Origin: Alphaproteobacteria bacterium
Lineage (GTDB): Bacteria; Pseudomonadota; Alphaproteobacteria; RF32; CAG-239
Length of the DNA: 57,005 nt
Assembly: GCA_031550205.1 (NCBI GenBank)
Contig: JAVBOV010000028.1
Location: 1-57,005, forward strand
Direction of reading: 5' to 3'
Each line of letters begins with the position of its first letter. Within the stretch, counting starts at the first letter, position 1. Below are positions 2,475-54,961 of the stretch, piece after piece. A program made the translations under genes and the position numbers. The notes under the pieces were generated by a model. That model was not told the origin of the DNA and did not search any database. It saw only the letters and a list, made by a program, of their open reading frames with translations.

Positions 2475-2592
2475 AATTTTTATTTTTAAATGAATAATAT
2501 TTGATACATAATTATAATCGTTTTTAACCCCCTCAGAATACCACACACACTCAAGATTTTCAACGTTTATAATGTTAAACTTTTGTTACAAG
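2475..2592 (-). promoter_or_regulatory. Conserved ~120-bp upstream leader block with a (CA)n tract and a distal TTGTAACAAAAGTTTAAC motif
   Basis: Aligns almost base for base with 22005-22127, which lies upstream of an unrelated gene. The distal motif recurs at 50078-50095 and 16500-16517, and is truncated at window positions 1-10. Confidence 0.45.
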
Positions 2593-2611
2593 ACTCGTTC
2601 CCCTCTTTCCC

Positions 2612-2737
2612 CGTCATTGCGGCCTCCGAGCCGCAATCCATTAAGAAAGGCAGACAATATACAGATTTCCCCACAAAACATTAAACAAAAACAAAATCAG
2701 CCCTTCACAATAGATTGCGGGTCAAGCCCGCAATGAC
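2612..2737. repeat. Inverted doublet of GTCATTGCG..CGCAATCC hairpin repeats (REPIN-like)
   Basis: cgtcattgcggcctccgagccgcaatcc (2612-2639) and gattgcgggtcaagcccgcaatgac (2713-2737) lie in opposite orientation with a 73-bp spacer. Confidence 0.6.
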
Positions 2738-2745
2738 AAGAATAA

Positions 2746-3031
2746 TCAACCAACCATCCTTATTATTTCCTCTTTCCTGCCTTAGTGCAGCTTTTTAGAT
2801 TTTGTTTGCTCGTTTTGCGTCCTCTGGCTCGTAGCGTGTTCTGCCGAAAGAACAATAAGATAGTCAAAGAAAGATAAAGGAGACAGGCAGAACTTTGCGA
2901 AGAGAGCAAAATGAGCATTACAAAATATTAAAAGCGGAACTCAGGCAGGGTCTTTTGGTTACTTTGGGACGCCAAAGTAACAAACCCCCGCGCAGGTAAA
3001 GGGCCGAAAAAAAAATAAGGATGAAATTGCC
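2746..3031 (+). repeat. Family-A ~280-bp structured intergenic element, copy 1
   Basis: Long imperfect hairpin (cctgccttag...gttctgcc / ggcagaac...ctcaggcagg), then a second hairpin ggttactttgg-gacg-ccaaagtaac (2957-2981), then an A-rich tail ending gaaattgc. Homologous to 17120-17397 and 43441-43733. Confidence 0.8.
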
Positions 3032-3063
3032 GCGTCGCTAACGCTCCTCACAATAACGCAAAC

Positions 3064-8575: not shown

Positions 8576-8580
8576 TCCTT

Positions 8581-8620
8581 TCTCCCTCTCCCCTTGCGGG
8601 AGAGGGTTGGGGTGAGGGGT
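8581..8620. repeat. GC-rich hairpin repeat (ctccc..gggag / ggggtgagggg type)
   Basis: tctccctctccccttgcgggagagggttggggtgaggggt. A related copy lies at 42728-42768. Confidence 0.6.
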
Positions 8621-8662
8621 AAAAAAAAGAGCTTCATCTTTTATAAGATTGAAGCTCTTTCA
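8621..8662 (+). terminator. Terminator-like hairpin after the 772-aa gene
   Basis: aagagcttcatc-ttttataa-gattgaagctctt is followed by a T-rich stretch. Confidence 0.5.
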
Positions 8663-16517: not shown

Positions 16518-16622
16518 AAAATTTGTCCAAAAAACTCTTGCCCTAACCCCAAAAATATGCTAAATTACCTTCATTCAAACAAATTATCATGTTAATATTA
16601 TAAATTAAAAAAACAAAAAATT

Positions 16623-17078
16623 ATGGAAACATTAACCACATTCCAACAATTTGCCCTAAGCCTAATGTCCGGATTTCTGTTCGTCCACTTCATCTTCATA
16701 ATCTGTAAAGCTTGGACCGGATGCGCAAACCCTCTTGAAAAGCTTTTTTGGGATTACAGAGACGAAAAACTTGAAAAAGATGACAAAGATAACCCCGGAA
16801 AAGAAGCAGACCGCTTTGCCCTTAGAGGTGATGGAGTTCTATACACATTAAGACAAAAGAAAAGAAGCGTTATTGCCTATTTAGCTATGACAATAATCTT
16901 AACCATTGCCTTCATCCCAATAAGCTGGTGGTTTTTATTATTACTTTTAACGGCAATCTTCCCGCAAGTTGTCCTCTTATTATTAGAATTTTTCGCTTTT
17001 ATCCTTGTTCTTATTTTTACAACCATCCCATACTACTTGTCAAAATACCTATACCAAGGCATAAAAAGCTTCTTCTAA
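16623..17078 (+). CDS. Hypothetical membrane protein
   Basis: Hydrophobic N-terminal segment and two C-terminal TM-like segments (ILTIAFIPISWWFLLLLLTAIFPQVVLLLLEFFAFILVLIF). Followed by a terminator. Confidence 0.55.
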   Translation: METLTTFQQFALSLMSGFLFVHFIFIICKAWTGCANPLEKLFWDYRDEKLEKDDKDNPGKEADRFALRGDGVLYTLRQKKRSVIAYLAMTIILTIAFIPISWWFLLLLLTAIFPQVVLLLLEFFAFILVLIFTTIPYYLSKYLYQGIKSFF

Positions 17079-17084
17079 ACCCCC

Positions 17085-17118
17085 AAAAGCCTCTCTTACG
17101 AGAGGCTTCTTTTATTTT
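17085..17118 (+). terminator. Rho-independent terminator
   Basis: aagcctctc-ttac-gagaggctt followed by cttttatttt. Confidence 0.7.
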
Positions 17119-17119: not shown

Positions 17120-17397
17120 AAACCGCTCATCCATATAAAATTCGCCTTAGTGCAGCTTTTTAGATTTTGTTTGCTCGTTTTGCGGCCTTCGGCTCGTAGC
17201 GTGTTCTGCCGAAAGAAGAATGAGACAGCAGAAGAACAGTAAAAGAGGAAGGCAGAACTTTGCGGAGAGAGCAAAATGAGCATTACAAAATCTTAAAAGC
17301 GGAACTCAGGCGAAAGCCTTTGGTTACTTTGGGCTTTCAAAGTAACAAAACCCTATGCAGATAAAAAACTACGAAAAAAAATAAAGACGAGATTGCC
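17120..17397 (+). repeat. Family-A structured intergenic element, copy 2
   Basis: cgccttagtgcagctttttagattttgtttgctcgttttgcgg...ggcagaactttgcgg...cggaactcaggc, then hairpin gttactttg-ggcttt-caaagtaac (17322-17346), then an A-rich tail ending gagattgcc. Confidence 0.8.
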
Positions 17398-17475
17398 AAT
17401 TAAACCCACCCCAACCCCGCGGCCGACGTTCGGCTCCCTTAAAATTAAGGGAGGGCATTAAGAATAACGTTTTTC

Positions 17476-21492: not shown

Positions 21493-21527
21493 GTCATTGC
21501 GAGAGGGTGTCTGCCCCGAAGCAATCC
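21493..21527. repeat. GTCATTGCGAG..GAAGCAATCC hairpin repeat
   Basis: gtcattgcgagagggtgtctgccccgaagcaatcc is nearly identical to 29068-29102. Confidence 0.7.
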
Positions 21528-21554
21528 AGCCAAACCAGCCATCCTTATAAAACC

Positions 21555-22004: not shown

Positions 22005-22127
22005 AATTTTTTGTTTTTTTAAAGTTAATAATATTTAAATATAATGATAAGCGTTTTTAACTCTTCCAGAGTACCACACACACACACAAGACTTTCAACA
22101 CTTTTAATATTAAACTTTTGTTACAAA
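22005..22127 (-). promoter_or_regulatory. Second copy of the conserved ~120-bp leader block with a (CA)n tract
   Basis: accacacacacacacaagactttcaacacttttaatattaaacttttgttacaa aligns with 2475-2592. The CA tract has 7 units here against 5 there. Confidence 0.45.
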
Positions 22128-22147
22128 ACCCCTTCAAAAAAAACATT

Positions 22148-22237: not shown

Positions 22238-23443
22238 TTACTTAATAGTTTGCTTTATTCTCTTCTTTATAATTGCCCTTATACTGCCTGCTGTTTTTTG
22301 CATTTTTTTCTCATCAAACTTCTCAAACAGCCATTCTGCCGCATCTTCAACGTTCTGCAGTGTAAAAGCCAAAGTCTCTTCTAAAACCTCTTCTCCCACC
22401 CCAATCTCTTCTGCCATTTTCATAAAATGCCGACGACTTATCTTATCCGGGTTATATTCTCCGCCGATACTCATCGCCATGCTTTTACTCAGCTTCGGAT
22501 AAACTTGCGTGGAAACCAAATCATAAAATGGAGCCAGTTTTATCCCTTGTTTAGTATATAAAAAAGAAAAATTTTTGCCATGCGCATCTGAGTTTCCAAT
22601 CACAAAATTAAAAACCGTCAAACGCAAAAACTGCATTTTATCTGCAAGCGGAGAAACCGAATGATTTTCAATAAGCTTAAAACACTGCTTAATCGAAGGT
22701 CCCCCGTCTTTTTGATATTTTTTACCCATCAACCCCAATGCTTGGCAAAAATCTTCCTGATGAACCCTCTTTATAGCCCGCTTCCCTCCCCTGTCATATC
22801 TCTTGGTGCAATAATATAGCCCCTTTTTTGTCTCCTCAATATCGCACTCTGCAACTTCAAACCCCAATATCTTTGCCAAAATCATGCAAAAATATTCATT
22901 ATATACCAAGCCCTCAAAGGCCAGGTTATCCGGCTTAATAATATGCGTAGAAACGTTCTCGCTGTTGGGAATATAAAATTCTCCACCTTTGCAAATCAAA
23001 GCAATTTTATCCTGTGCTCCGGCAAGAGAAAGCCTGACATCTTCTCCGACCAGCATTGGAACTTTCACCCTGTTTTCAAACAGTTCATCCAAATCTTTTT
23101 TCAAAAGCAAAACCGGCTTGGCGGTCTCTTTTTTCTTCAAGCCTGAAAGGTGCAGCGAAACCGCTCCCGCACACTCTTCGCCAAATTCTCTTAAAAAAGC
23201 AAACGGATTATTCGCTGAAAACCCCTTAAGTTTAGCAATAATTTTTCTCAAATCTCCTTCCGGCAAAAGGTTTTCAAAAAAACCTCTGCTCCACCTGTCG
23301 TCAAAAGCTTCTTTTTGCAAAGGAAGTGCCAAAGAAATCGGCCTTGAAGCAGTCTCAAGATACTTAAAGCTCAGTCTTGAATTTTTCTCGGTCAAAACTC
23401 CAACTTTTTCATCAAAAAAGTATACATCCAAAGAAGGCATCAT
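22238..23443 (-). CDS. hipA: HipA-family serine/threonine kinase toxin
   Basis: LSLAGAQDKIAL and VIGNSDAHGKNFSF catalytic-loop motifs. The ATG at 23443 overlaps the hipB TGA (ATGA coupling). The track start at 23458 is TTG. Confidence 0.9.
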   Translation of the reverse strand: MMPSLDVYFFDEKVGVLTEKNSRLSFKYLETASRPISLALPLQKEAFDDRWSRGFFENLLPEGDLRKIIAKLKGFSANNPFAFLREFGEECAGAVSLHLSGLKKKETAKPVLLLKKDLDELFENRVKVPMLVGEDVRLSLAGAQDKIALICKGGEFYIPNSENVSTHIIKPDNLAFEGLVYNEYFCMILAKILGFEVAECDIEETKKGLYYCTKRYDRGGKRAIKRVHQEDFCQALGLMGKKYQKDGGPSIKQCFKLIENHSVSPLADKMQFLRLTVFNFVIGNSDAHGKNFSFLYTKQGIKLAPFYDLVSTQVYPKLSKSMAMSIGGEYNPDKISRRHFMKMAEEIGVGEEVLEETLAFTLQNVEDAAEWLFEKFDEKKMQKTAGSIRAIIKKRIKQTIK

Positions 23444-23649
23444 CTGTTCTCCAGACAAACAACCAAACCAAGCTGCTCAATCACATATAAAACCTTACCA
23501 ACTTGGCAGGTCTCTTTTCCAGCCTCTAAATCAACAATAAAACGAACCCCAACCCTGCAAAAACCGGCCAGTTGCCCCTGCGTCAAACCTTGTTTTTTGC
23601 GCTCTTCTCTAACTCTCTCACCAATTTCTTTAAACTTTTTAACAATCAT
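23440..23649 (-). CDS. hipB: XRE-family HTH antitoxin (HipB-like)
   Basis: IGERVREERKKQGLTQGQLAG helix-turn-helix. Lies directly upstream of hipA and is translationally coupled to it. ATG at 23649. Confidence 0.8.
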   Translation of the reverse strand: MIVKKFKEIGERVREERKKQGLTQGQLAGFCRVGVRFIVDLEAGKETCQVGKVLYVIEQLGLVVCLENR

Positions 23650-24352: not shown

Positions 24353-24550
24353 GATATAATTATTAATATTTTAATTTTTAAACACCAAACCATTTATCAT
24401 TATTTAGACAAAATGTCAACCACATAATGACCCTGCCTCAAATAACCAACCACCCTTATTCTCTTTCTACCTCTTTATTGCCATAAAAAACCGTTTAGAT
24501 TCAGACAAAACAGCAGCGCAAAAGCCCCTCTGACTACTGACTACCGACTA

Positions 24551-29067: not shown

Positions 29068-29102
29068 GTCATTGCGAGAGGGCGTCTACCCCGAAGCAAT
29101 CC
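29068..29102. repeat. GTCATTGCGAG..GAAGCAATCC hairpin repeat
   Basis: gtcattgcgagagggcgtctaccccgaagcaatcc. Confidence 0.7.
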
Positions 29103-29104
29103 AC

Positions 29105-29974: not shown

Positions 29975-29991
29975 AAATAAATCAATTCAAT

Positions 29992-30095
29992 GAGTTTGAT
30001 TTGTGAGCGTGCTACGCAGTGATTTTGCGGGCGTGAGTGTACGCTTTTGTACATGAGCCCGCAAAATTACAAGTATGACGCCATAAATCAAACTC
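29992..30095. repeat. Family-B ~100-bp palindromic element, copy 1 (abuts the hydA stop codon)
   Basis: gagtttgattt...gattttgcgggc-gtgagtgtacgcttttgtacatga-gcccgcaaaatt...aaatcaaactc. Homologous to 40890-40992. Confidence 0.8.
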
Positions 30096-31885
30096 TACTT
30101 CGGCTCAACAGCTTCGTCTTTCTTATACGCCTCACGCTTAACATAATGCGTATGCAAAAGCTCGTGTGCCTTGTGCGAAGACGGTTTTTCCAAAAATTCA
30201 TCATAAAGCTTCTTAATCGATTCGTTATGGTGAGAGAAATGGTTCTTCATTCCCTTATCCTCATCCAGCAAACCTTTGGCGCGCTTTAAGCGAATATCGT
30301 TGGTAATGCCGCGAGGTTTCTGCTGATCAGGAAGCAAGGCTCTCGGCTGTCCGCCGCCGGAAATACATCCGCCGCGGCAAGCCATAACCTCAACAAAGTG
30401 ATACGGAGTTTCAAGGCCTGCCTTCTTGGCCTCGCGAACCTTTTGCAAAACCTTTTCCACATTTCCGGTTCCATGCGCCACCGCAATACGAACCTTGTTT
30501 CCGGCAACGTCAATTTCAGCTTCCTTAACGCCTTCCAAGCCTTCAATCTGCTTAAAATTAACCGTTTCCAGCTCTTTGCCGGTAATGTAAAAATAGGCCG
30601 TGCGCAAAGCCGCCGTCATAACCCCGCCGGTTGTGCCGAAGATTGTGCCAGCGCCGGAATATTCACCCAGCGGATTATCTGCCTGCTCATCTTTTAAAGC
30701 CCTGAAATTAATGCCCGACTGCTTAATCATTCTTGAAAGCTCTCTGGTGGTCAAAGACACGTCCACATCTTGGAACCCTGAAGATCTCATGTCTTCGCTG
30801 CGCCTGATTTCCCACTTTTTGGCTGTGCAGGGCATAATTGAAATCACCCTGACCTTAGCTGGGTCAAGCCCCATTTTCTGGGCATAATAAGTCTTGGCCA
30901 TAGAGCCCACCATCGATTGCGGAGACTTACAGCTTGAGAAATGAGAAATCATGTCATGATGATACTTTTCCATCAAATCCACCCAAGACGGGCAGCAAGA
31001 TGTAATCAAAGGCAGGCTGTCCGGCTGCTTGGTAAACCTGTTCACAAACTCGGTTGCTTCTTCAATAATGGTCAAATCTGCACCAAAGTTGGTGTCAAAT
31101 ACCTTGGAAAAGCCCAAGCGGCGCAAAGCGGCATAAAGCTTGCCGGTCAAATTTGTGCCGATTTCATAGCCGAAATCTTCGCCGATTGCCACTCTAACCG
31201 CCGGAGCAATCTGCACAATAGTGTGCAAATCTTTGTCATTAAGCATATCCCAAACCTTTTGGGTCTCGTCATACTCAACAATTGCACCGGTCGGACAGTG
31301 TGCCGAACATTGACCGCACTTAATGCACGGACTCTCGTTTAGTGGAATTCCGCCGGCAGCCGTAATTTTGGTTGCCAATCCGCGGTGCAAAAAGCCCAAA
31401 GCCCAAACGTTTTGCTGATGCTGACAAACTTCCACGCAGCGTCCGCAGGTAATGCATTTTGAAGCATCCAAAACAATCGATTTTGTAGAATCATCAATCG
31501 GGTGCATCTTAGTTAGGTTGGGAAGTCTGGCCTCTCTAATCCCAAAGTCCTGCGTAATATCTTGCAACTCGCAGGTTCCTGAGCGAATGCAGGTCAGACA
31601 GGAGTTCGGATGGTTGCTCAAAATCAGCTCCAAAACCGTTCTTCTCACGCTCACCAGTTCCGGGTCAGAGGTAATAATGTTCATACCTTCTTCCGCCGGC
31701 GTGCAGCAAGAGCGCAAAATTCTGCCGTTAACCTTAACAATGCACAATCCGCAGCCTGCTGACGGGTCAACATCCGGGTGCTTGCACAAAGTAGGAATAT
31801 CAATCTGAATGTTTCTGGCTGCTTCTAAAATTGTCGTACCCTGAGGAACTTCAACATCAAAATTATCAATCTTTAATTTCACCAT
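30095..31885 (-). CDS. hydA: [FeFe]-hydrogenase catalytic subunit (M3-type, with C-terminal small-subunit-like tail)
   Basis: H-cluster motifs TSCCPSW, MPCTAKKWE and EVMACRGGCISGGGQP. N-terminal 2Fe-2S domain, HPNSCLTCIRSGTC, and two CxxCxxCxxxC ferredoxin motifs. Confidence 0.95.
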   Translation of the reverse strand: MVKLKIDNFDVEVPQGTTILEAARNIQIDIPTLCKHPDVDPSAGCGLCIVKVNGRILRSCCTPAEEGMNIITSDPELVSVRRTVLELILSNHPNSCLTCIRSGTCELQDITQDFGIREARLPNLTKMHPIDDSTKSIVLDASKCITCGRCVEVCQHQQNVWALGFLHRGLATKITAAGGIPLNESPCIKCGQCSAHCPTGAIVEYDETQKVWDMLNDKDLHTIVQIAPAVRVAIGEDFGYEIGTNLTGKLYAALRRLGFSKVFDTNFGADLTIIEEATEFVNRFTKQPDSLPLITSCCPSWVDLMEKYHHDMISHFSSCKSPQSMVGSMAKTYYAQKMGLDPAKVRVISIMPCTAKKWEIRRSEDMRSSGFQDVDVSLTTRELSRMIKQSGINFRALKDEQADNPLGEYSGAGTIFGTTGGVMTAALRTAYFYITGKELETVNFKQIEGLEGVKEAEIDVAGNKVRIAVAHGTGNVEKVLQKVREAKKAGLETPYHFVEVMACRGGCISGGGQPRALLPDQQKPRGITNDIRLKRAKGLLDEDKGMKNHFSHHNESIKKLYDEFLEKPSSHKAHELLHTHYVKREAYKKDEAVEPK

Positions 31886-34057: not shown

Positions 34058-34229
34058 TTTTACCACCTTTTCTTATAAAAAATCCAAATTTGAATTAGAC
34101 TTACCATATTATGTAAAATCTTCTTATTCAAGCATAAATTGCTCTCTTCCATAATAAACTTGTGTTTCAAAAAGTTTCACTCTAAAATTTGTTTGTTTTC
34201 TAAAAAATATTTGATTATACTCGTCCCTG

Positions 34230-35351
34230 ATGAAAAAATTAAACTTATACATTTCAAAGCAGCTTCTTGTCGGTTTTTTACTGGTTGCTTTCTCGCTGCT
34301 TTCCATTTTATGGCTGACTCAGTCTTTGCGCTTTGTTGAACTAATCACCAGCAAAGGCCTGCCGGTCAGCATTTTTGTTGAAATGACCTCTCTCTTAATG
34401 CCCAGGCTTTTTGTGCTTTTGTCACCCATATCAATCTTCATTGCCTGCCTCTTCACCTTCAACCGCCTGCTTTCCGACCGCGAACTGGTGGTCATGAAAT
34501 CCGCCGGCATCAGCCCTTGGCAAAGCTCCAAAGCAGTGTTTCTTGTGGGTGGCATATTAACCGTTTTCAGCATCTACATGAACAACTTCGGCATCCCCGG
34601 AGCCGAGAAATCCTTTAGCGAGCTTGAGTGGAAGGTTAAAAACGACCTTTCCCATCTTCTGTTTCGCGAAGGAGAGTTCACCACCCTGCAGTCCGGCTTA
34701 ACCATTTTCATCACCTCGCAGGAAAAAAACGGCTCGGTTTCCGGCATTTTAATTAATGATGAAAGAGACCCGCAGAAAAAGGTAACCGTTGTTGCCGATA
34801 AGGGCCGCATTGTCTATTCCGAAGACAAGCCGCGCATTCTTCTTATCAAAGGTGCCAGACAAGAAATAAACCTCAAAGACTCTCAGTTTTCTTCTCTTTC
34901 ATTTGACCGTTATTCCGTAGATTTTGCCACGCCCTCCGCCGGCAAAAAGAAAGACGCCGGCGTGCGCAGCCAAAACCTTTTTGAGCTCTTAAGCGCCGGC
35001 AGCAACCCAAACTTAACTCCTCAGGAAGCCAGCCGCTACATGGTTGAGGGGCACAAAAGGCTCCTTAACCCGTTTTACAACATTTTGTTTGCGCTTCTTG
35101 GGTGCGTAGGCTTCTTAATCGGCAGTTTTAACCGCCGCGGCCAGGCCAAAATCATCTTCACCTCCATATTTTTCATGGTCATTATCCAGGCCGGAGACCT
35201 GGCCTACGGCAACATGGCCGTTAAGCGTTTTTATCTGCTGCCTTTACTATATATAAACTTTTTTGTGCCTTTAATTATCTGCTTATGTTTATTAAAGTTT
35301 AACCGCATATCTTTCTTTCCGAAAAGAAAAAAAGAGACAGTTTATGAATAA
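34230..35351 (+). CDS. LptF/LptG-family LPS export permease
   Basis: YISKQLLVGFLLV N-terminus, six TM-like segments and a periplasmic beta-jellyroll region. Lies directly upstream of lptD and overlaps it by 8 nt. Confidence 0.85.
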   Translation: MKKLNLYISKQLLVGFLLVAFSLLSILWLTQSLRFVELITSKGLPVSIFVEMTSLLMPRLFVLLSPISIFIACLFTFNRLLSDRELVVMKSAGISPWQSSKAVFLVGGILTVFSIYMNNFGIPGAEKSFSELEWKVKNDLSHLLFREGEFTTLQSGLTIFITSQEKNGSVSGILINDERDPQKKVTVVADKGRIVYSEDKPRILLIKGARQEINLKDSQFSSLSFDRYSVDFATPSAGKKKDAGVRSQNLFELLSAGSNPNLTPQEASRYMVEGHKRLLNPFYNILFALLGCVGFLIGSFNRRGQAKIIFTSIFFMVIIQAGDLAYGNMAVKRFYLLPLLYINFFVPLIICLCLLKFNRISFFPKRKKETVYE

Positions 35352-37560
35352 AAAAGTTTATCTTTTTGCGCTTCTGGGCAGCACTTGCATCCACTCGCAG
35401 GCTTTTTGCGCGTCTTTTTCACCTGGCACTCCTCACAGTGCCATTGAGCCTTCTTATAACTTAACCAATGTCGCAGATATTACCTCCCCGAAAAACTTTG
35501 AAAAAGAAACCCCTGAAATTTATTTCAGCGCCGATGAAATGGAAAACAACCAAGAACTCCAAATCATCACTGCCTCCGGCGACGTAAACATCATCCGCAA
35601 TACTGTAAGCCTCAAGGCCGACAAGGTCATTTATAACCAAAAAGAAGACATTATCACCGCTGTCGGCAACGTGATTATCATTGAAAAAAACGGCAGTATG
35701 GTTTTTTCCGATTATGTGGAACTAAGCGATAAAATGTCTCAGGGTGAAATGCAAAATATTAAGGTTATTTTAAAAGACCAAAGCCGCATCGCTGCCCGCA
35801 AAATTAAAAAGTTTAAAAATGATGATAAGGAAATGTACAACGCGGTTTATTCCGCCTGCGACATCTGCAAAGGAGAAGAGCCTCTCTGGCAGATAAAAGC
35901 AGACAAAATCACCCACGATGCCGCCAAACAGGACATAGACTACAATAATGTGACCTTGGAGGCTAAAGGCGTTCCGGTTTTTTACACCCCTTTTCTTTCT
36001 CACCCTGACCCCAGCGTAAAAAGGCGTTCCGGCTTTTTAGCCCCGACCTTGGGCTCTAATTCTTATTTGGGTGCAACTTTGCAGCCCAGGTACTTCATTG
36101 ACATCTCCAAACATGAAGACTTCACTTTTTCTCCAATCTTAAGCTCCGATAAAGGCGTTGTTTTAGACGGCACCTACCGCAAAAACTTTTATAGCGGCAA
36201 TCTTGAGGCTCAGGGAAGTTTTTTAAGAGATGATGACAAATCCAAAGACCGCGGGCACTTGTTTGCAAACGGGCGTTATGAATTAAATGACTACTGGGTT
36301 GCCTCAACCAATGTCAACTATGCATCTGACGGCGCCTATCTCAAAGACCTCTCTCTTGATAAAAAAGATGATGCCTGGCTGACCTCTTCCGCCAAACTTG
36401 AAGGCTTTGACTACCGCAACTACGCCGCCGTTGAAGGATATTACTACAAACTCATCAGTACCGACCTGCCTGAGCTTGATAAACCCCACGTTTTCCCGAT
36501 AATGAGTTATGAAAACATCTCCGACCCGCAAAGTTACGGCGCTTATACCAAAACCAACTTAGAGTTTGCCTCTGTCAACCGCGAAGAAGAAACCTCTTCC
36601 CAAAGAGCCACCATGATAAATTCATGGATTCTGCCATATACCAGCCCCTTTGGCGAAAAATACCGCCTGCAGGCCTCCTTAAAATCCGACGCCTATTACG
36701 TTGACAACTACCTAAACCCCGATAATGAAACCTACGACGGCACCGTCGGCCGCATGTTTCCGCAGTTAGGTCTGGAATGGAAGCTTCCTTTTGTCAGGGC
36801 AACGGAAAGTTCCCGCCAAATCTTAGAACCGACAATTGTTGCGGTAGCGGCTCCTAGCGGCGGCAACAAAATCAACAAAATTCCCAATGACGACAGTCTT
36901 TACAAAGAACTCGACGACACCAATATCCTAGACCTTGACCGTTATTCCGGTTATGACCGCAACGATTCCGGCAGCCGCGTCAGCTATGGCTTAAACTGGA
37001 GCACCTACGGCGATAAAACCGGCCGCACCTCTGCCTTCATTGCTCAAAGCTATAATGTGGATTCCGACGAAAACTTTCCTTATGGAAACAGTGAAAAGAG
37101 CTCCAATTTCAGCGATTATGTCGGAAGAGTTTATGCCGCTCCCAATGAATATCTGGATTTAAACTATCGTTTCCGCATGGATAAAGACAACTATGAGTTG
37201 AAATATTCTGAACTTTCAGCCAATGCCGGCCCGCCGATCTTAAACGCATATGTCGGATATATTTATTTGCAAGAAGACGAAAATTCTGTTATTCAGGGAT
37301 ATGACGAACGAAAAGAACTGTTCACGTCCATTCGTTCCGCCTTAAGCCGCGATTGGTCGATTTTGGTTTACAACCGCCAAGACCTTACCAAAGACGGCGG
37401 CTCTCTGGAATATGGCAGCTCTTTAATTTATGAAGACGAGTGTTTAAAACTTATAACCAACATGAGAAGAAACAACTCTAGCGACCCTGATTTTGAAGGC
37501 GATTTTGAAGTTAGCGTTACCTTCTTGTTAAAAACTTTGGGAGGCTTCGGCTCAAAATGA
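35344..37560 (+). CDS. lptD: LPS assembly outer-membrane protein LptD
   Basis: Signal peptide, OstA-like N-terminal domain (ADEMENNQELQIITASGDV..), and a large beta-barrel region rich in aromatic/Gly alternation. ATGA overlap with surA. Confidence 0.88.
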   Translation: MNKKVYLFALLGSTCIHSQAFCASFSPGTPHSAIEPSYNLTNVADITSPKNFEKETPEIYFSADEMENNQELQIITASGDVNIIRNTVSLKADKVIYNQKEDIITAVGNVIIIEKNGSMVFSDYVELSDKMSQGEMQNIKVILKDQSRIAARKIKKFKNDDKEMYNAVYSACDICKGEEPLWQIKADKITHDAAKQDIDYNNVTLEAKGVPVFYTPFLSHPDPSVKRRSGFLAPTLGSNSYLGATLQPRYFIDISKHEDFTFSPILSSDKGVVLDGTYRKNFYSGNLEAQGSFLRDDDKSKDRGHLFANGRYELNDYWVASTNVNYASDGAYLKDLSLDKKDDAWLTSSAKLEGFDYRNYAAVEGYYYKLISTDLPELDKPHVFPIMSYENISDPQSYGAYTKTNLEFASVNREEETSSQRATMINSWILPYTSPFGEKYRLQASLKSDAYYVDNYLNPDNETYDGTVGRMFPQLGLEWKLPFVRATESSRQILEPTIVAVAAPSGGNKINKIPNDDSLYKELDDTNILDLDRYSGYDRNDSGSRVSYGLNWSTYGDKTGRTSAFIAQSYNVDSDENFPYGNSEKSSNFSDYVGRVYAAPNEYLDLNYRFRMDKDNYELKYSELSANAGPPILNAYVGYIYLQEDENSVIQGYDERKELFTSIRSALSRDWSILVYNRQDLTKDGGSLEYGSSLIYEDECLKLITNMRRNNSSDPDFEGDFEVSVTFLLKTLGGFGSK

Positions 37561-38540
37561 AAAAACTTTCCTTATTTTTGCTCAGCCTGGTTTTTGCCGG
37601 CAATTCCTTCGCTCAAAGCGTTGATATTCCTGAACAAAAACCCGACATCAGCTTTAAAAACTCTTCTTCTGCCCAAAGCCGCAGCAGCGGAGATTTCAAG
37701 ATTATTGCCTTGGTCAATGGTGATTTAATTACCGGTGAAGATATCAAAAACCGCATCAACGCCTTTGTCATGACCACCCAAATTCCCTTAAACGAGCAAA
37801 CCCGTCCTTTAATTTCTCAAAAAGTTTTGCAAAACGCCGTGGATGAAAAATTAAAAATACAAGACGCTGAGAAAAACGGCATAATCATAAGCAATTCTGA
37901 AATTAATGCCGCCGTCGCCTCTTTTGAAAAAAACAACTCCATCCGCCCCGGCGGCATGGAAAGCACCCTTAAAAAAGCCGGTGTTTCTCAAGACGCTTTT
38001 CGTGAACAAATTAAGGCCGATTTAGCCTGGCTTAAGCTTGTCCGCAAAAAAAACAGCTCAAACACTTTAACCCAAAAAGAAATTGAACAGGCGGAAGTTG
38101 AGGCCAAAGAAGATCTCTCCATTCAAAAATATATGGTTTCGGAAATCTTAATTAAGAAAAACAACGCCAAAGACATCGACGCTTTGGTAACCCGTCTGCG
38201 CGAAGACCCGCGTTTTGAACTGTACGCCATGCAGTTTTCGCAAAGCCCCAGCGCCTCAAACGGCGGCAAGCTCGGCTGGGTAAACAAAGGTAAATTGCTG
38301 CCTCAGCTTGAAAAAGCCTTAAGTAAAATGCAGGAAGGAGATGTTTCAAACGCCGTTAACATCAACGGTGATTACCATATCTTAAAGCTCCATAAGGTTT
38401 TTGACCCCGACAAAGACAGGGCTCAGGTGCCAAGTGAAGAAGATATTAAAAAATTTCTGGAAAACCAAAAGCTTGAAGCCTTTTCTGCCGATTATCTGCA
38501 AAAACTCCGCTCACAGGCCTTAATTGAACTCAGAAACTAA
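37557..38540 (+). CDS. surA: SurA-like periplasmic chaperone / parvulin PPIase
   Basis: Signal peptide, SurA N-domain, and one parvulin domain (FSQSPSASNGGKLGWVNKGKLLPQLEKAL). Conserved lptD-surA-rsmA order. Confidence 0.85.
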   Translation: MKKLSLFLLSLVFAGNSFAQSVDIPEQKPDISFKNSSSAQSRSSGDFKIIALVNGDLITGEDIKNRINAFVMTTQIPLNEQTRPLISQKVLQNAVDEKLKIQDAEKNGIIISNSEINAAVASFEKNNSIRPGGMESTLKKAGVSQDAFREQIKADLAWLKLVRKKNSSNTLTQKEIEQAEVEAKEDLSIQKYMVSEILIKKNNAKDIDALVTRLREDPRFELYAMQFSQSPSASNGGKLGWVNKGKLLPQLEKALSKMQEGDVSNAVNINGDYHILKLHKVFDPDKDRAQVPSEEDIKKFLENQKLEAFSADYLQKLRSQALIELRN

Positions 38541-39361
38541 TGGAAAACCTAAAAGAAATCATTGCCCGCCACGGCTTAACTGCCAAAAAATCTTTAGGCC
38601 AAAACTTTCTTTTTGACAGCAATATCACTGATAAAATCGTCAGTTTAAGCCTTGAAAAACAAGCCCTTAAAGACCTGTCGCAATCTTTTGTTTTTGAAAT
38701 CGGCTCCGGCCCCACCGGCCTAACCCGCTCCGTTTTAAAGAAAAACCCGCAAAAACTGACTTTGGTTGAAATGGATTCGCGCTGCATCGCCATCGCTGAA
38801 GAGCTGAAACAACAAACCGGCGCCAATATTGAGATTATAAACCAAGACGCCTTAAAAACCGACTTAAGTCAAATGGAAAGAAGCCCGCGTCATATTTTTG
38901 GCAATCTTCCATATAATATTTCCGTTCCGCTGCTCATCGGCTGGCTCAAAAATATTGAAAGTTTTGATAGCTTAACTTTAATGTTTCAAAAAGAAGTGGC
39001 GGAAAGAATTATGGCGCCGACCAAAACCAAAGACTACGGCCGCATTTCCATTCTTTCCCAACTGCTTTGCCAAACCGACAAGCTTTTTGACATCAGCCCA
39101 GAGAGCTTTATCCCCGCCCCCAAAATCTGGTCAACCGTGTTGCTGTTCCGCCCGCTTCATGCCGATATCAGCGCTAAAGACATTGAAAACATTGAAAAAT
39201 TAACTGCCATGGCCTTCGGCCAGCGCCGTAAAATGATTCGCTCCTCCTTAAAAAACATCCCCAACTTAGAAGGCCTTTGCCAAAAAATCGGCATCAAAAC
39301 CGATTCCCGCGCCGAAGAACTAACCCCGGCCCAATTCCTCTCCCTGGCCAAATTAATCTAA
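38540..39361 (+). CDS. rsmA: 16S rRNA (adenine1518/1519-N6)-dimethyltransferase
   Basis: KKSLGQNFL, EIGSGPTGLT and GNLPYNIS motifs. Confidence 0.95.
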   Translation: MENLKEIIARHGLTAKKSLGQNFLFDSNITDKIVSLSLEKQALKDLSQSFVFEIGSGPTGLTRSVLKKNPQKLTLVEMDSRCIAIAEELKQQTGANIEIINQDALKTDLSQMERSPRHIFGNLPYNISVPLLIGWLKNIESFDSLTLMFQKEVAERIMAPTKTKDYGRISILSQLLCQTDKLFDISPESFIPAPKIWSTVLLFRPLHADISAKDIENIEKLTAMAFGQRRKMIRSSLKNIPNLEGLCQKIGIKTDSRAEELTPAQFLSLAKLI

Positions 39362-39368
39362 CATTCAC

Positions 39369-39399
39369 GTCATTGCGAGGCCTTTAGGCCGCGGCAATC
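39369..39399. repeat. GTCATTGCGAGG..GCGGCAATC hairpin repeat
   Basis: gtcattgcgaggcctttaggccgcggcaatc is nearly identical to 54849-54879. Confidence 0.7.
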
Positions 39400-39496
39400 T
39401 CATTCTTACCATCCATATTTTGTCTAAATCTCTATTGCATTATCCCCAAACTTATGCTACCCTCCCCTCAAATCAAAATTATTAAATCATATCATT

Positions 39497-40633
39497 ATGG
39501 AAAAAACATTATTTAACGGCAACATCTTAAAAGTAAGACTAGCCAAATTTAACAAAAATCGTCGGGTTTTAACTATTGAAACGCCGGATGGCGAAGAGCT
39601 ATTCCGAAAAAAACTTTCTTTAAACTTCATAATTGCAACACATTTCAATTTTGTTTGCTTTTACGATTATAAGAACAATTTTTTCTCTTCAAATACCGCC
39701 TGGCTAACCGCCAACGGCCAACTCTTAAGCGACGACTACCAGCCTTTTGCAGAAGAAGACTTCGTTCCCGCCGGCATCATCGCCACCAACAAAATCAACG
39801 GTCTAACCGGTTTAATCGATTTTCTTGGCAATGAAATTATCCCCTGCGGATATAAAGACATCATTGAGTTCAAAAAAGCCACCCACCCCGGATGTCCGAA
39901 AGGTTGGTTTGCGCTAAGAAAAAGCAGCGATCTTCTTATGGGCTTAGCCAACAAAGAAGGAAATATTGTCATTCCGGCAATATATGATGATATCAGCTTC
40001 ACCCCGTTTCACATAATCGCCGAAGATTCTCAAAAAAATTATTTTCGCTTTTACGATTTTAAAGGAACAATAAAAGGTGAGCTCGAAAAAGTGGACTTTG
40101 ATAAGAAAAACAATGTTTACAAGGTCATGACTAAAGTCGGCTTTGACATTTTGTCCTCTGATTTAAAAAGCATTCTGCCAAATGAAGTGCAAAAAAACAT
40201 ATTAAAAGATACATTTGTTTTTACTGCTCGTCATACAAATCTTTTTAACGGTGGCAAGGTTATCCTCTATCCCGACAAAGAAGGCCGCATCAGGATTTAT
40301 GGTTCAAAAAACAACCATAAAAAAGGCAACGACGTTTCTGAATTTGACGACATGTGGTTTTTCAAACAGCAAATCTGCGAACAAGGCTTTGCCCTGTTAA
40401 ACCAAGACTGGGTTATCTTCGATAAACAAGGCAACGCTCTTGCTTCAATGCTGATAGATGATTTAAAGCTGCTTCCGGAGGGAATCGTGCTCTATAAGCG
40501 TTCTTTTTCCGGCAAAACCAAACAAGGTTTTATGGATTGGAAAGGAAAACTGCTCTATCCCATTACTTTTGATGAAATTGTATTCAAAAAAGGAGTAGCC
40601 CTCGGAAAAAACAATTCTATTTTCGACAAATGA
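39497..40633 (+). CDS. WG/KWG-repeat-like protein (paralogue of 53694-54764)
   Basis: Repeated units of the form G(L/F)xxxxGxxVIPxxYDxIxxF (GLIDFLGNEIIPCGYKDIIEF, GLANKEGNIVIPAIYDDISF). Clear paralogy to the second copy, including the leader. Confidence 0.65.
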   Translation: MEKTLFNGNILKVRLAKFNKNRRVLTIETPDGEELFRKKLSLNFIIATHFNFVCFYDYKNNFFSSNTAWLTANGQLLSDDYQPFAEEDFVPAGIIATNKINGLTGLIDFLGNEIIPCGYKDIIEFKKATHPGCPKGWFALRKSSDLLMGLANKEGNIVIPAIYDDISFTPFHIIAEDSQKNYFRFYDFKGTIKGELEKVDFDKKNNVYKVMTKVGFDILSSDLKSILPNEVQKNILKDTFVFTARHTNLFNGGKVILYPDKEGRIRIYGSKNNHKKGNDVSEFDDMWFFKQQICEQGFALLNQDWVIFDKQGNALASMLIDDLKLLPEGIVLYKRSFSGKTKQGFMDWKGKLLYPITFDEIVFKKGVALGKNNSIFDK

Positions 40634-40634
40634 C

Positions 40635-40662
40635 TTGACAAAAACATTTTTTGTGCTAATAT
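40635..40662 (+). promoter_or_regulatory. Near-consensus sigma-70 promoter overlapping the stop of the WG gene
   Basis: TTGACA (40635-40640), 16-nt spacer, TAATAT (40657-40662). Confidence 0.45.
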
Positions 40663-40668
40663 GAGTTC

Positions 40669-40873
40669 ATCTTATCAGTTACTGTCTAAATTATTTTATA
40701 CACATAAGCCCGAATTTACCGACCTCGGGCTCCTAAAACCAAACTATATGAATAAAACAATCCCAAATTTCGCACGCGTCCGCAACAAATCGCCGGCTGC
40801 TGTTTTGAATAATGGTTAATTTTTACTACATGACACTTAAAAAGCTTCCTTTGCACTGGGAAGCTTTTTTTTT
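40669..40873 (+). ncRNA. Candidate ~200-nt transcript of unknown class, bounded by a promoter and a terminator
   Basis: Begins just after the TTGACA/TAATAT promoter and ends at aaaagcttcc-tttgcact-gggaagctttttttt (40840-40873). Has an internal hairpin agcccga-N11-tcgggct. I could not match it to SRP, 6S, tmRNA or RNase P motifs. Confidence 0.3.
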
Positions 40874-40889
40874 AAAAAACCAATCGATA

Positions 40890-40992
40890 GGCTTGATGTG
40901 AGGGTGTGCTGCGCCGTAACTTTGCAGGCGCGAGTGTACACTTTAGTACATAAGCCTGCAAAATTACAAGCATGACGCCCTCAAAGCAAGCC
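40890..40992. repeat. Family-B palindromic element, copy 2 (abuts the aroK stop codon)
   Basis: ggcttgatgtgagggtg...ctttgcaggc-gcgagtgtacactttagtacataa-gcctgcaaaatt...cgccctcaaagcaagcc. Confidence 0.8.
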
Positions 40993-40994
40993 CC

Positions 40995-41528
40995 TTATCT
41001 GGAAAACCCCTTAATCGCCGAAACCACCCTTTCAACAGTATTATCCACCTGCTCTTCCTTGGTCTCGACAATAATATCGGCTTCGGAATAATACGGATAT
41101 TCCTCGCCGATATATTTTTCCAGCTTATCTTTAAGCTGAACATCGCTTTCTTTCAAAAACGGACGATGCTTGCGGCCGGCGGTGCGGCTGTATAAAATAT
41201 CAACATCGGCTTTCAGCCAGACTGTCACTGCATGTTCTTTGGCCAGCTCTCTGGTTTCTTCCGCCACAAAAGAGCCTCCGCCCGAAGCCAAAACGCAGGG
41301 CTCGCCTTTCAAAAGGCGCTTCATCACCCTCATTTCTCCGGCACGATACTCTTCTTCGCCAAAACACTTCAAAACATCAACCAAAGACAAGCCGGCGGCT
41401 TTTTCAAGTTCTTGGTCGCCATCCACAAACGGCAGCCCCAGCTTTTTAGCCAGTCTTTTTCCGACGCTGGTTTTACCGCTGCCCATCAGCCCCACCAGCA
41501 AAATAATCCTGTTTATTTTTTCAACCAT
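40995..41528 (-). CDS. aroK: Shikimate kinase
   Basis: LVGLMGSGKTSVGKRLAKKLGLPFVDGD and the ASGGG block. Confidence 0.93.
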   Translation of the reverse strand: MVEKINRIILLVGLMGSGKTSVGKRLAKKLGLPFVDGDQELEKAAGLSLVDVLKCFGEEEYRAGEMRVMKRLLKGEPCVLASGGGSFVAEETRELAKEHAVTVWLKADVDILYSRTAGRKHRPFLKESDVQLKDKLEKYIGEEYPYYSEADIIVETKEEQVDNTVERVVSAIKGFSR

Positions 41529-41576
41529 GTGTGTTATTATCTTAAAAAAAGTTCAACCTATAGAAAGTTATATATC

Positions 41577-41717
41577 ATGCGTCAAAAAAAATCAAAAAAA
41601 TTTTTATACATCCTTGCCGGCGTAGCCGTTTTGGGCATCTTATTTGCCGCCACGCGTGAAATGCCGATTAAAACCGAGCACGTTGAGCAGCCCTTAGAGA
41701 ACTCTTTCTTGAAATGA
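41577..41717 (+). CDS. Possible 46-aa single-pass membrane peptide
   Basis: MRQKKSKKFLYILAGVAVLGILFAAT.... The stop overlaps the xerD ATG (ATGA). No clear RBS. It is the only part of track ORF 41232-41717 that is not antisense to aroK. Confidence 0.3.
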   Translation: MRQKKSKKFLYILAGVAVLGILFAATREMPIKTEHVEQPLENSFLK

Positions 41718-42721: not shown

Positions 42722-42727
42722 TCTTTC

Positions 42728-42768
42728 TTCTCCCTTCCCCTTGATGGGGAAGGGTTGGGGTGGGGGTG
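42728..42768. repeat. GC-rich hairpin repeat (cttcccc..ggggaag / ggggtggggg type)
   Basis: cttctcccttccccttgatggggaagggttggggtgggggt, related to 8581-8620. Confidence 0.6.
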
Positions 42769-42841
42769 ATAAACCCAACCACCCTTATTTCTCCTTGACT
42801 CCAAATCAATAAAGTCTTTACTTTTCAACAATCTTACCTGA

Positions 42842-42861
42842 TACGTGACGCGCATCACGTA
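42842..42861. promoter_or_regulatory. TACGTGA-N6-TCACGTA palindrome, second locus
   Basis: tacgtga cgcgca tcacgta lies immediately 3' of the XRE gene stop (42864). Same half-sites and spacing as 29191-29210. Confidence 0.45.
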
Positions 42862-42863
42862 AT

Positions 42864-43109: not shown

Positions 43110-43197
43110 GGCTCAAATCCTATCTATAGCCCAATTTGGGCTTAGCCTATAATAGGTTTAACAAGTTGTCTAGGAAAAACTTTCTAGAGAATAAAAA

Positions 43198-43437: not shown

Positions 43438-43440
43438 AAA

Positions 43441-43733
43441 AACCAACTATCCTTATACTCTTTCTTTCCTGCCTTAGGAAAAGTATTTAGATTTTGTTAG
43501 CGTAGTCTTGCGTCCTTCGGCTTGAGCGTGAGTCCTGCCGACTTAGAAAGTAAGACAGCTAAAGAACAATAACTCACTAAGGCAGGACATTAGCGAGAGA
43601 GCAAAACGGGCATTACAAAATCTTAGAAAGCGGAACTCAGGCTGCCTTTTTTGCCATACTTTTTGGGCAAGCAAAAAGTATGAAAACTACGTGCAGGTAA
43701 TAAACTCTAGGAAAAAAATACGAATGAAATTGC
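43441..43733 (+). repeat. Family-A structured intergenic element, copy 3 (most diverged)
   Basis: aaccaactatccttat...cctgccttagg...gtcctgcc / ggcaggac...cggaactcaggctg, then hairpin catacttttt-gggcaagc-aaaaagtatg (43655-43682), then an A-rich tail ending gaaattgc. Confidence 0.75.
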
Positions 43734-43756
43734 AAAAACAGCTAAGGTAAAAAACC

Positions 43757-54802: not shown

Positions 54803-54848
54803 ATACCCAAACACCCTCTTCCCTGCCTTAGTGTATATATAAAAAAAC

Positions 54849-54961
54849 GTCATTGCGAGGGCTTTAGCCCGCGGCAATCTCATCTGAATTTTTTTCTAGA
54901 ATATTTTACAATTAGATAGATAGGATTCTGCTGAGATTGCCGCACTCCGCTCGCAATGACG
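54849..54961. repeat. Inverted doublet of GTCATTGCGAG hairpin repeats (REPIN-like)
   Basis: gtcattgcgagggctttagcccgcggcaatc (54849-54879) and gattgccgcactccgctcgcaatgacg (54935-54961) face each other across a 55-bp AT-rich spacer. A solo family-A left terminus cctgccttagtg lies at 54822-54833. Confidence 0.6.

What the first reader, a model, noticed from the sequence alone, without database searches (positions are those of the whole stretch)
2746..3031. Family-A ~280-bp element: three same-strand copies with compensatory stem changes (structured RNA or MITE)
Copies at 2746-3031, 17120-17397 and 43441-43733 are all intergenic and all in the same orientation. Each has three parts. The first is a ~170-nt imperfect hairpin with termini cctgcctTAG...cTCAggcagg. 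The second is a separate short hairpin. The third is an A-rich tail ending g(a/g)aattgc. Copy 3 is about 25-30% diverged yet keeps pairing. The base of the long hairpin is gttctgcc/ggcagaac in copies 1-2 and gtcctgcc/ggcaggac in copy 3. The second hairpin is gttactttg/caaagtaac in copies 1-2 and catacttttt/aaaaagtatg in copy 3, an entirely different sequence with the same structure and position. A solo left terminus (cctgccttagtg) is at 54822-54833. No transposase is in the window. The element is either a non-autonomous mobile element with hairpin-dependent mobilisation or a multicopy structured RNA. I do not recognise it as any named family.
Basis: seen in the sequence. Interest (0 to 1): 0.65.

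Follow-up and report, generated by a model that had tools for sequence, protein, structure and literature searches.

The report
Hairpin-rich intergenic repeat, probably mobile DNA
Three ~285-bp non-coding copies of one lineage-specific repeat sit between genes of an uncultured gut alphaproteobacterium; it looks like a hairpin-forming, REP-associated selfish DNA element rather than a conserved RNA gene, so it is a new family of an ordinary kind.

Summary
The three same-strand, intergenic copies are real (2748-3033, 17120-17399, 43440-43735). Copies 1 and 2 fold into a ~175-nt hairpin far better than shuffled sequence. "Copy 3 keeps pairing" is only partly true. Its long hairpin is no more stable than shuffles. 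All its changes in the main 27-bp helix break pairs. Two-sided changes occur only in the base helix (copy 1 vs 2), one or two apical pairs, and the short second hairpin.

The window also holds truncated left-end fragments, all on the + strand. The A-rich tail ending GA(A/G)ATTGCC is the inverted flank of this genome's abundant REP palindrome. Copy 1 runs into a whole degenerate REP.

No match was found in Rfam, in two public contig collections, or among viral, phage and plasmid records. The family was absent from 116 kb of syntenic DNA from the closest relatives found (about 62% aa identity). One more copy exists in an NCBI contig. Assembly depth suggests about 6-9 copies. RNA evidence is low-level and unstranded. 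The window has no transposase.

Best reading: a non-autonomous, REPIN/MITE-like mosaic repeat, possibly moved as single-stranded hairpin DNA by an enzyme encoded elsewhere. A structured-RNA gene family is less likely but not excluded.

The parts
2748..3033 (+). Copy 1, full length. Left module 2748-2778; long hairpin 2776-2952 (5' arm about 2779-2846, purine-rich loop about 2847-2885, 3' arm about 2886-2949); second hairpin 2958-2981; A-rich tail 2982-3033.
3012..3060 (-). Degenerate whole REP unit in inverted orientation. It overlaps and continues the tail of copy 1 (GATGAAATTGCCGCG...CTCACAATAACG).
   Evidence: Read; compared by eye with the REP at 39367-39403.
17120..17399 (+). Copy 2, full length. 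It has an 8-nt deletion of the CT-rich part of the left module. Long hairpin 17141-17317; second hairpin 17323-17346. It starts about 5 nt after the intrinsic terminator of the upstream gene (17086-17115).
   Evidence: RNA contig over 17125-17323
43440..43735 (+). Copy 3, diverged (about 75% identity in the 5' arm, 85-89% in the 3' arm). Long-hairpin region 43468-43648 is no longer significantly stable. Second hairpin 43655-43682 is kept through compensated changes.
24444..24505 (+). Degenerate truncated copy: left module plus the start of the 5' arm.
   Evidence: (E 1.2); weak on its own
21532..21550 (+). Solo left-end motif AAACCAGCCATCCTTAT, immediately after the REP at 21493-21528.
42772..42788 (+). 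Solo left-end motif AACCCAACCACCCTTAT.
54816..54833 (+). Solo piece CTCTTCCCTGCCTTAGTG: the CT-rich end of the left module plus the base of the 5' arm.
54872..54909 (-). Tail-like module (GAAAAAAATTCAGATGAGATTGCC on the - strand) fused to the REP at 54847-54883. It shows that the family-A tail is the REP flank.
2613..2740 (.). Inverted REP doublet (REPs at 2616-2637 and 2714-2734), REPIN-like, abutting the left side of copy 1.
   Evidence: One search shows very high depth and variable spacers for this doublet in the metagenome.

Best explanation
Family A is a lineage-specific, non-coding, hairpin-forming interspersed repeat. I read it as a non-autonomous, REP-associated mosaic element of the MITE/REPIN kind, not as an RNA gene.

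The ~285-bp unit has four parts. A left module ends in CATCCTTAT. A ~175-nt imperfect palindrome follows, whose arms are strongly conserved while its loop drifts. Then comes a small hairpin. The right module begins with the inverted motif ATAAGGATG and ends in the half-site GA(A/G)ATTGCC of the genome's REP palindrome.

Inferred mechanism: the unit is, or was, copied to new intergenic sites, often just past terminators. A transposase encoded elsewhere in the genome would do this. The most plausible type is a single-strand-DNA, hairpin-recognising HUH/Y1 enzyme (RAYT or IS200/IS605-like). That type would account for three things: the absence of target-site duplications, the uniform orientation relative to the replication strand, and the link to REPs. 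Old copies then decay (copy 3, truncated left ends). Transcription is incidental, from read-through or weak local initiation.

Shown: the repeat family, its anatomy, hairpin stability in copies 1 and 2, decay in copy 3, partial copies, REP homology of the tail, orientation bias, absence from relatives, and absence of a transposase in the window.

Inferred: mobility, the enzyme class, and the single-stranded intermediate.
For: Conservation and decay
- Three full copies lie in unrelated intergenic contexts.
- Between copies 1 and 2 the arms are 96-97% identical, the loop 70%, the linker 45% and the tail 72%. REPINs show the same pattern of conserved arms and a drifting spacer (PMC3116915).
- The copy 3 hairpin is not more stable than shuffles. 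It has 18 mismatches. The main helix has 0 compensated and 7 broken cells. This looks like decay, not purifying selection on a fold.

Fragments, orientation and REP link
- Truncated or solo left ends occur at 21532, 24444, 42772 and 54816.
- The left-end motif has 6 hits, all on the + strand, against 0.4 expected.
- GC skew is negative across the whole window, so it lies in one replichore.
- The tail matches the inverted REP flank at 54873-54894. Copy 1 continues into a whole REP unit. The window has seven REP palindromes and two inverted doublets.
- The hairpins are equally significant as ssDNA.

Distribution
- Assembly graph depth of the shared 5' arm (unitigs at 50-72x against 6-10x flanks) suggests about 6-9 copies.
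- Loose ends show other flanks and partial or tandem arrangements.
- One further copy is seen as a spurious 72-aa ORF from an NCBI contig.
- The family is absent from 116 kb of syntenic DNA of relatives, which also lack the REPs.
- Copy 3 sits at a synteny breakpoint.
- Rfam gives nothing.
Against: - No target-site duplication, empty site or excision joint was seen. No cognate transposase is in the window. Mobility is therefore not demonstrated.
- The element is not a symmetric REP doublet. Its left end lacks a REP core.
- Arm conservation is asymmetric in copy 3 (3' arm 85-89%, 5' arm 75%). A pure hairpin-recognition model does not predict this.
- At least two copies appear in metatranscriptome contigs.
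- The second hairpin and the base helix show genuine two-sided changes.
- The orientation argument rests on 6-7 sites within one 57-kb stretch.
Confidence: 0.58

Rival explanations
1. A multicopy structured non-coding RNA gene family. The ~175-nt hairpin plus the second hairpin would be the functional fold of a small RNA, for example a protein-sequestering or RNase III-processed RNA, expressed from several loci.
For: - Copies 1 and 2 fold very stably.
- Two-sided changes occur in the base helix, one or two apical pairs and the second hairpin.
- The arms are much more conserved than the loops.
- In copy 3 the 3' arm is conserved in sequence even where pairing is lost.
- An RNA contig matches copy 2 exactly over 17125-17323 while the downstream genes have none. 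A second diverged copy is also present in RNA contigs.
Against: - No Rfam match even at E up to 1-10.
- No promoter-like or terminator-like site inside copy 1 on either strand.
- RNA depth is about 2-3 against 21.5 for the neighbouring gene, and nothing is seen for copy 3.
- The copy 3 fold is no better than random.
- G-U and A-C mismatch counts do not favour a strand.
- Truncated fragments exist and the ends are shared with REPs.
- No homologue in relatives' loci.
- Compensated changes also occur in mobile hairpin DNA (PMC3116915).
Confidence: 0.17
2. A domesticated cis-acting intergenic module. The hairpins would act on neighbouring genes at the DNA or RNA level, for example as a 3'-end mRNA stabiliser, a transcription insulator between convergent genes, or a binding platform for a nucleoid protein, as proposed for some REP/BIME and ERIC elements.
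For: - All copies lie at gene 3' ends. Copies 2 and 3 sit between convergent genes. Copy 2 and the 54816 fragment lie just after terminators.
- RNA contigs covering copy 2 lie downstream of an expressed gene.
- The arms are conserved.
Against: - Placement at 3' ends is also where selfish insertions are least harmful.
- Orientation relative to the neighbouring genes is not consistent. Copy 1 is antisense to both neighbours.
- There are decayed and truncated copies.
- Nothing tested here bears directly on function.
Confidence: 0.15
3. Non-mobile leftovers. The copies would be remnants of segmental duplications, or of the ends of a decayed insertion sequence or prophage, with no present activity of any kind.
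For: - There is no transposase, target-site duplication or empty site.
- Copy 3 is degenerate and several pieces are fragments.
Against: - The flanks of the copies share no homology, so these are not segmental duplications.
- Arms at 96-97% identity against a loop at 70% argue for constraint, or for recent copying from constrained masters.
- About 6-9 copies share an identical 5' arm segment.
Confidence: 0.1

Closest known systems
REPINs / REP sequences with RAYT transposases (Bertels and Rainey 2011, PMC3116915)
   Same: Both are extragenic and multicopy. Both form a long hairpin in ssDNA or RNA, with conserved arms and a less conserved spacer, and with compensatory changes across the hairpin. 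Decayed singlets occur. There is no autonomous gene inside. The element ends in, and in copy 1 is fused to, this genome's REP palindrome. Genuine inverted REP doublets lie nearby (2613-2740, 54847-54960).
   Different: The hairpin arms are not REP sequences. The unit is larger (about 285 bp against about 100 bp) and asymmetric, with an extra small hairpin and a tail. Only the right end carries a REP half-site. No RAYT was found, because only 57 kb is available. Copy number appears low (about 6-9).
Classical bacterial MITEs and imperfect-palindrome repeats (ERIC, Correia/NEMIS, RUP, Rickettsia palindromic elements); features recalled from general knowledge
   Same: Small, non-coding, interspersed and intergenic. 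Most of the element folds into a long imperfect hairpin. It is sometimes co-transcribed with neighbours. The family is lineage-specific.
   Different: Classical MITEs have terminal inverted repeats at their very ends, flanked by target-site duplications, and match a parent IS. Here the long palindrome is internal. The outer inverted repeat is only 9 nt (6-8 matching in copies 2 and 3). No duplication is seen and no parent IS is known.
Mosaic intergenic elements (BIMEs of enterobacteria, RIMEs of rhizobia); recalled from general knowledge
   Same: Built from modules that also occur separately: the left-end motif, the REP flank or tail, and REP cores. The modules combine in different ways in intergenic DNA.
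   Different: No sequence relationship. The central ~175-nt hairpin module was seen only within family A.
IS200/IS605-derived non-autonomous elements (palindrome-associated transposable elements); recalled from general knowledge
   Same: No target duplication, sub-terminal hairpins, strand-specific orientation with respect to replication, and asymmetric ends.
   Different: No conserved tetra- or pentanucleotide target next to the left end could be identified. The hairpins are much longer than the usual ~20-nt sub-terminal hairpins. No TnpA or TnpB was found nearby.

Membership tests
REPIN (REP doublet forming a hairpin) | [quoted passage not shown] | tested here: not met
   The arms of the long hairpin are not the genome's REP (one search compared). 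Only the right end carries a REP half (copies 2 and 3) or a whole degenerate REP (copy 1). The outer ends share only CATCCTTAT/ATAAGGATG.
REPIN (REP doublet forming a hairpin) | Conserved arms, less conserved spacer, compensatory changes across the hairpin | tested here: met
   Arms 96-97% against loop 70% between copies 1 and 2. Five pairs show two-sided change. The criterion comes from PMC3116915.
REPIN (REP doublet forming a hairpin) | A cognate single-copy RAYT (Y1 transposase) in the genome | not testable with these tools
   None among about 50 ORFs of the window. The rest of the genome could not be retrieved.
Classical MITE | Terminal inverted repeats at the element ends | tested here: inconclusive
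   9/9 nt in copy 1 (CATCCTTAT/ATAAGGATG), 8/11 in copy 2, 6/8-9 in copy 3. These repeats are short, and they lie inside the conserved boundaries rather than at them.
Classical MITE | Target-site duplication flanking each copy | tested here: not met
   Flanks of the three copies were inspected and none carries a direct repeat on both sides. The duplicated AAAACCAACTA at copy 3 lies on the left side only.
Classical MITE | Sequence match of the ends to a parent IS with a transposase | tested here: not met
   No transposase in the window. No match in plasmid or phage records, viral contigs, genome or metagenome collections.
IS200/IS605-type non-autonomous element | Insertion 3' of a fixed short target, sub-terminal hairpins, orientation tied to the replication strand | tested here: inconclusive
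   Orientation is uniform: 3 full copies plus 3-4 fragments, all on +, within one replichore. No common target sequence was recognisable at the junctions.
Described structured RNA family (Rfam 15) | Covariance-model match at or near the gathering score | tested here: not met
   No hit at gathering score in the window. Only chance-level hits at E 0.08-4 on the three copies, and a different family each time.
Structured RNA gene in general | Fold maintained in diverged copies by compensated substitutions; discrete transcript | tested here: inconclusive
   The second hairpin, base helix and apical helix are compensated. The main helix is not. The copy 3 fold has z -0.7. RNA exists only as unstranded contigs at depth 2-3.

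The most novel reading that the evidence does not exclude
Family A could be a previously undescribed multicopy structured RNA, or an RNA/DNA element with a dual life. The conserved 3' arm and second hairpin would be functional, for example as a guide-like or protein-binding RNA that travels with REP-type mobile DNA in a gut alphaproteobacterial lineage. That would explain three observations: the 3' arm stays conserved in copy 3 although pairing is lost, the second hairpin is strictly compensated, and at least two copies are transcribed.
Probability: 0.12. Interest if true: 0.6.

Novelty: new member of a known kind. Interest (0 to 1): 0.3.

Why it matters
If the reading is right, this is one more lineage-specific family of hairpin-forming selfish intergenic DNA.

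- It is useful for annotation, because its spurious ORFs get called as proteins (P0121 is one).
- It helps explain why the short-read (Logan) contigs of this sample break at these loci.
- It marks a repeat expansion in an uncultured gut alphaproteobacterium whose closest relatives found here show none of these repeats in the 116 kb of their DNA examined.

The fusion of a large structured module to a REP half-site is a small but concrete lead on how REP-type systems pick up cargo. It does not open a long-standing question.

Tried and rejected
1. Rfam was run at gathering score on the whole window and in E-value mode on each copy. Nothing consistent came up.

2. Exact and gapped DNA patterns from the most conserved block found 0 hits in genome contigs, metagenome contigs and viral contigs. 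A second, AT-rich gapped pattern in metagenome contigs returned at least 120 loci. All were chance matches: nhmmer found none homologous.

3. blastn against plasmid and phage records found nothing.

4. Spurious-ORF trick. A profile of the element's minus-strand ORF found one protein (P0121, 72 aa, NCBI, 9.5-kb contig), which is another copy. Its DNA could not be fetched. A protein-guided scan of genome contigs found nothing. A concatenated six-frame query returned nothing and wasted the last protein search.

5. A conserved small ORF was rejected. Copies 1 and 2 share a possible 34-aa frame, but copy 3 and P0121 carry frameshifts in it.

6. The covariance model R1 and nhmmer were run on relatives' syntenic loci L002-L007. 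No homologue was found.

7. Strand assignment from G-U against A-C mismatches was uninformative: 3 vs 1 in copy 2 and 3 vs 3 in copy 3.

8. The apparent 40-fold excess depth of the 5' arm was rejected as an artefact of summing overlapping unitigs. Single unitig depths of 50-72 are the better estimate.

9. The 'skip 78' joint at 2860-2939 was rejected as an excision product. It is a diverged copy that aligns only at its ends.

10. 6S RNA, retron msr/msd, integron attC, CRISPR and tmRNA were considered. None is supported by model matches, neighbouring genes or motif checks.

Full report
WHAT IS THERE

The window is a chromosomal stretch of a Gram-negative bacterium. It carries LptD/LptF, SurA, AddAB, ribosomal protein L9, RNase PH, a Tim44-like protein, MltA, FtsK and an FeFe hydrogenase. 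G+C is 43.6%. Its ADP-dependent kinase is at most 62-63% identical to proteins of MAGs labelled 'Alphaproteobacteria bacterium'. The DNA is found in a single public sample, an invertebrate gut metagenome.

Three homologous non-coding segments lie at 2748-3033, 17120-17399 and 43440-43735. All are on the + strand and all are intergenic. nhmmer scores them at E 1e-84 to 1e-94. A covariance model of the long hairpin finds exactly these three.

The shared anatomy is as follows:
- a left module (A)AACCAACYATCCTTAT followed by a CT-rich tract, which is deleted in copy 2;
- a ~175-nt imperfect palindrome with a ~40-nt purine-rich loop;
- a 9-11-bp second hairpin;
- an A-rich tail ending GA(A/G)ATTGC(C).

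HOW GOOD IS THE STRUCTURE

Copies 1 and 2 fold far better than dinucleotide shuffles. This holds for RNA on either strand (z -6.3, -5.2, -5.3) and for ssDNA (z -5.9). In copy 1 an outer 9-bp pairing, CATCCTTAT/ATAAGGATG, closes the whole unit. The same pairing is 8/11 in copy 2 and about 6/8-9 in copy 3.

Copy 3 is different. Its long-hairpin region has z -0.68 on the + strand and -1.76 on the - strand. Aligning the 5' arm to the reverse complement of the 3' arm gives these counts:

| copy | Watson-Crick | G-U | A-C | other mismatches | gaps |
|---|---|---|---|---|---|
| copy 3 | 40 | 3 | 3 | 18 | 9 |
| copy 2 | 51 | 3 | 1 | 8 | 8 |

On the RNAalifold consensus of 53 pairs, five pairs show a change on both sides. 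Three are in the base helix: copy 1 CCUGCC/GGCAGG against copy 2 UUCGCC/GGCGAA. The main 27-bp helix has no two-sided change and seven broken cells.

The second hairpin is genuinely compensated in copy 3. GT/AC becomes CA/TG, and there is a 2-bp insertion on both strands. Seven of its nine stem positions are nevertheless unchanged, so it is not 'an entirely different sequence'. G-U against A-C counts do not point to a transcribed strand.

CONSERVATION PATTERN

Identities by segment:

| segment | copy 1 vs copy 2 | copy 3 vs copies 1 and 2 |
|---|---|---|
| 5' arm | 96% | 75-76% |
| 3' arm | 97% | 85-89% |
| loop | 70% | 58-62% |
| linker | 45% | 36-64% |
| tail | 72% | 70-71% |

The arms are therefore constrained, or the copies derive from constrained masters, while the spacer drifts. 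[quoted passage not shown] Compensation therefore cannot separate an RNA gene from hairpin-forming mobile DNA. In DNA palindromes, template-switch correction can also create two-sided changes without selection on RNA. That last point is from established knowledge and was not tested here.

FRAGMENTS, MODULES AND THE REP CONNECTION

The left-end motif occurs six times in the window, always on the + strand, against 0.4 expected. Besides the full copies it sits at three places:
- 21532, directly after a REP palindrome;
- 24443, the start of a degenerate ~60-nt left part;
- 42772.

The window has seven intergenic copies of a REP-type palindrome, CGTCATTGCGAG...CGCGGCAATC(TC/C). They include two inverted doublets, at 2613-2740 and 54847-54960. 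These palindromes are enormously abundant in the metagenome.

The tail of family A matches the inverted flank of that REP. The sequence GAAAAAAATTCAGATGAGATTGCC lies on the minus strand at 54873-54894 and is fused to the REP at 54847-54883. In copy 1 the homology continues through a whole degenerate REP unit to about 3060. In copies 2 and 3 it stops at ATTGC(C). Family A is therefore a mosaic: a private central hairpin module joined to modules shared with the REP system.

GC skew is negative over the entire window. All these same-orientation pieces therefore lie in one replichore with the same polarity to replication.

OTHER COPIES AND DISTRIBUTION

In the Logan contigs of the DNA run, flanks have depth 6-10. 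Unitigs of the shared 5'-arm segment have depth 50-72. This suggests about 6-9 copies. Summed depths of 300-500 are an artefact of overlapping unitigs.

Loose ends reveal other flanks, more diverged copies, and left parts followed closely by another element start. No joint that would represent an empty site or a precise excision was seen at any of the three loci.

A profile of the element's spurious minus-strand ORF found one 72-aa 'protein' from an NCBI contig. It is another copy, with indels relative to copy 2. Its DNA was not retrievable.

Nothing related was found in the GTDB species genomes, JGI metagenome contigs, IMG/VR, or plasmid and phage records.

Syntenic loci from relatives (L002-L007, 116 kb, G+C 30-35%) contain no family-A homologue, no left-end or 3'-arm motif and no REP palindrome. 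Copy 3 lies at a synteny breakpoint between XerD and the ADP-dependent kinase, relative to those loci.

RNA

A metatranscriptome of the same study has a 199-nt contig identical to copy 2 over 17125-17323, at depth 2.9. The upstream gene is at 21.5 and the downstream genes at 0. A diverged further copy is also present in RNA at depth 2.2. Copy 3 has none.

The contigs are unstranded, and their ends coincide with repeat-induced graph breaks. They therefore show low-level transcription of some copies and nothing about a discrete RNA. No sigma-70-like promoter or intrinsic terminator was found inside copy 1. No Rfam family matches. No ORF is conserved across copies.

INTERPRETATION

The weight of evidence favours a non-autonomous, hairpin-forming, REP-associated interspersed repeat:
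- lineage-restricted and dispersed;
- modular, with truncated and decayed members;
- REPIN-like conservation pattern;
- uniform polarity;
- insertion next to terminators and REPs;
- no RNA-family match.

I infer, but have not shown, that it is mobilised in trans by a hairpin-recognising single-strand DNA transposase of the RAYT or IS200/IS605 type encoded elsewhere. It fails the strict definitions of a REPIN, because its arms are not REPs. It also fails those of a classical MITE, because it has no target-site duplication, no terminal long inverted repeats and no parent IS. I therefore file it as a new family of a known kind rather than as a member of either.

A structured-RNA gene family remains possible at about 0.15-0.2. 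Three observations support it: the strict compensation of the second hairpin, the sequence conservation of the 3' arm in copy 3, and the RNA contigs.

VERDICT

It is probably selfish or mosaic intergenic DNA. Interest is modest.

Noticed in passing
window 2613-2640, 2711-2740, 21493-21528, 29068-29103, 39367-39403, 54847-54883, 54931-54960: Seven copies of a REP-type palindrome (CGTCATTGCGAG...GCGGCAATC). Two pairs form inverted, REPIN-like doublets. In the metagenome these palindromes reach depths in the thousands, in both DNA and RNA contigs, with variable spacers.
   Followed up: partly
window 29985-30100 and 40880-40990: A second palindromic intergenic repeat family of about 110 nt at 77% identity (GAGTTTGATTT...TTTTGCGGGC...GCCCGCAAAA...AAATCAAACTC). 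Each copy lies just after an intrinsic terminator.
   Followed up: no
window 8580-8625 and 42728-42773: A third short repeat of the 'CCCTCTCCCC..GGGAGAGGGTTGGGGTG' type. The second copy lies directly before a solo family-A left-end motif.
   Followed up: no
window 2567-2593, 22102-22128, 34146-34172, 50071-50097; also 2477-2600 against 22010-22135: A conserved block TTAAACTTTTGTTACAA occurs four times. Around two of the sites, at 2477-2600 and 22010-22135, about 125 nt of sequence is 73-85% identical, and both stretches lie upstream of minus-strand ORFs. It may be a shared promoter or operator.
   Followed up: no
window 16522-16630, 39419-39504, 53615-53701: Three similar upstream regions precede three + strand genes (16623-17078, 39497-40633, 53694-54764). 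Each of these genes is followed by repeat elements: copy 2, the ~110-nt palindrome, and the solo terminus plus REP doublet.
   Followed up: no
window 34230-45160 compared with L002 and L006: Gene order is collinear with the relatives from the ADP-dependent kinase to CoaE. The block XerD-SK-LptF-LptD-SurA-RsmA is inverted or rearranged. One breakpoint is the repeat-rich interval 42722-43756, which holds an HTH gene pair and copy 3.
   Followed up: partly
window 1-57005: GC skew is strongly and uniformly negative (-0.09 to -0.28). G+C is 43.6%, against 30-35% in the syntenic loci of the nearest relatives.
   Followed up: partly
window 43426-43449: The direct repeat AAAACCAACTA occurs twice, 3 nt apart. 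The first copy forms the last codons and stop of the 79-aa HTH gene. The second is the left end of copy 3. The element may have supplied or replaced the gene's 3' end.
   Followed up: no
window 22238-23458 and 42864-43437: A HipA-like kinase gene, and a divergent pair of small XRE-type HTH genes. These are possible toxin-antitoxin or mobile-island remnants close to the repeat elements.
   Followed up: no
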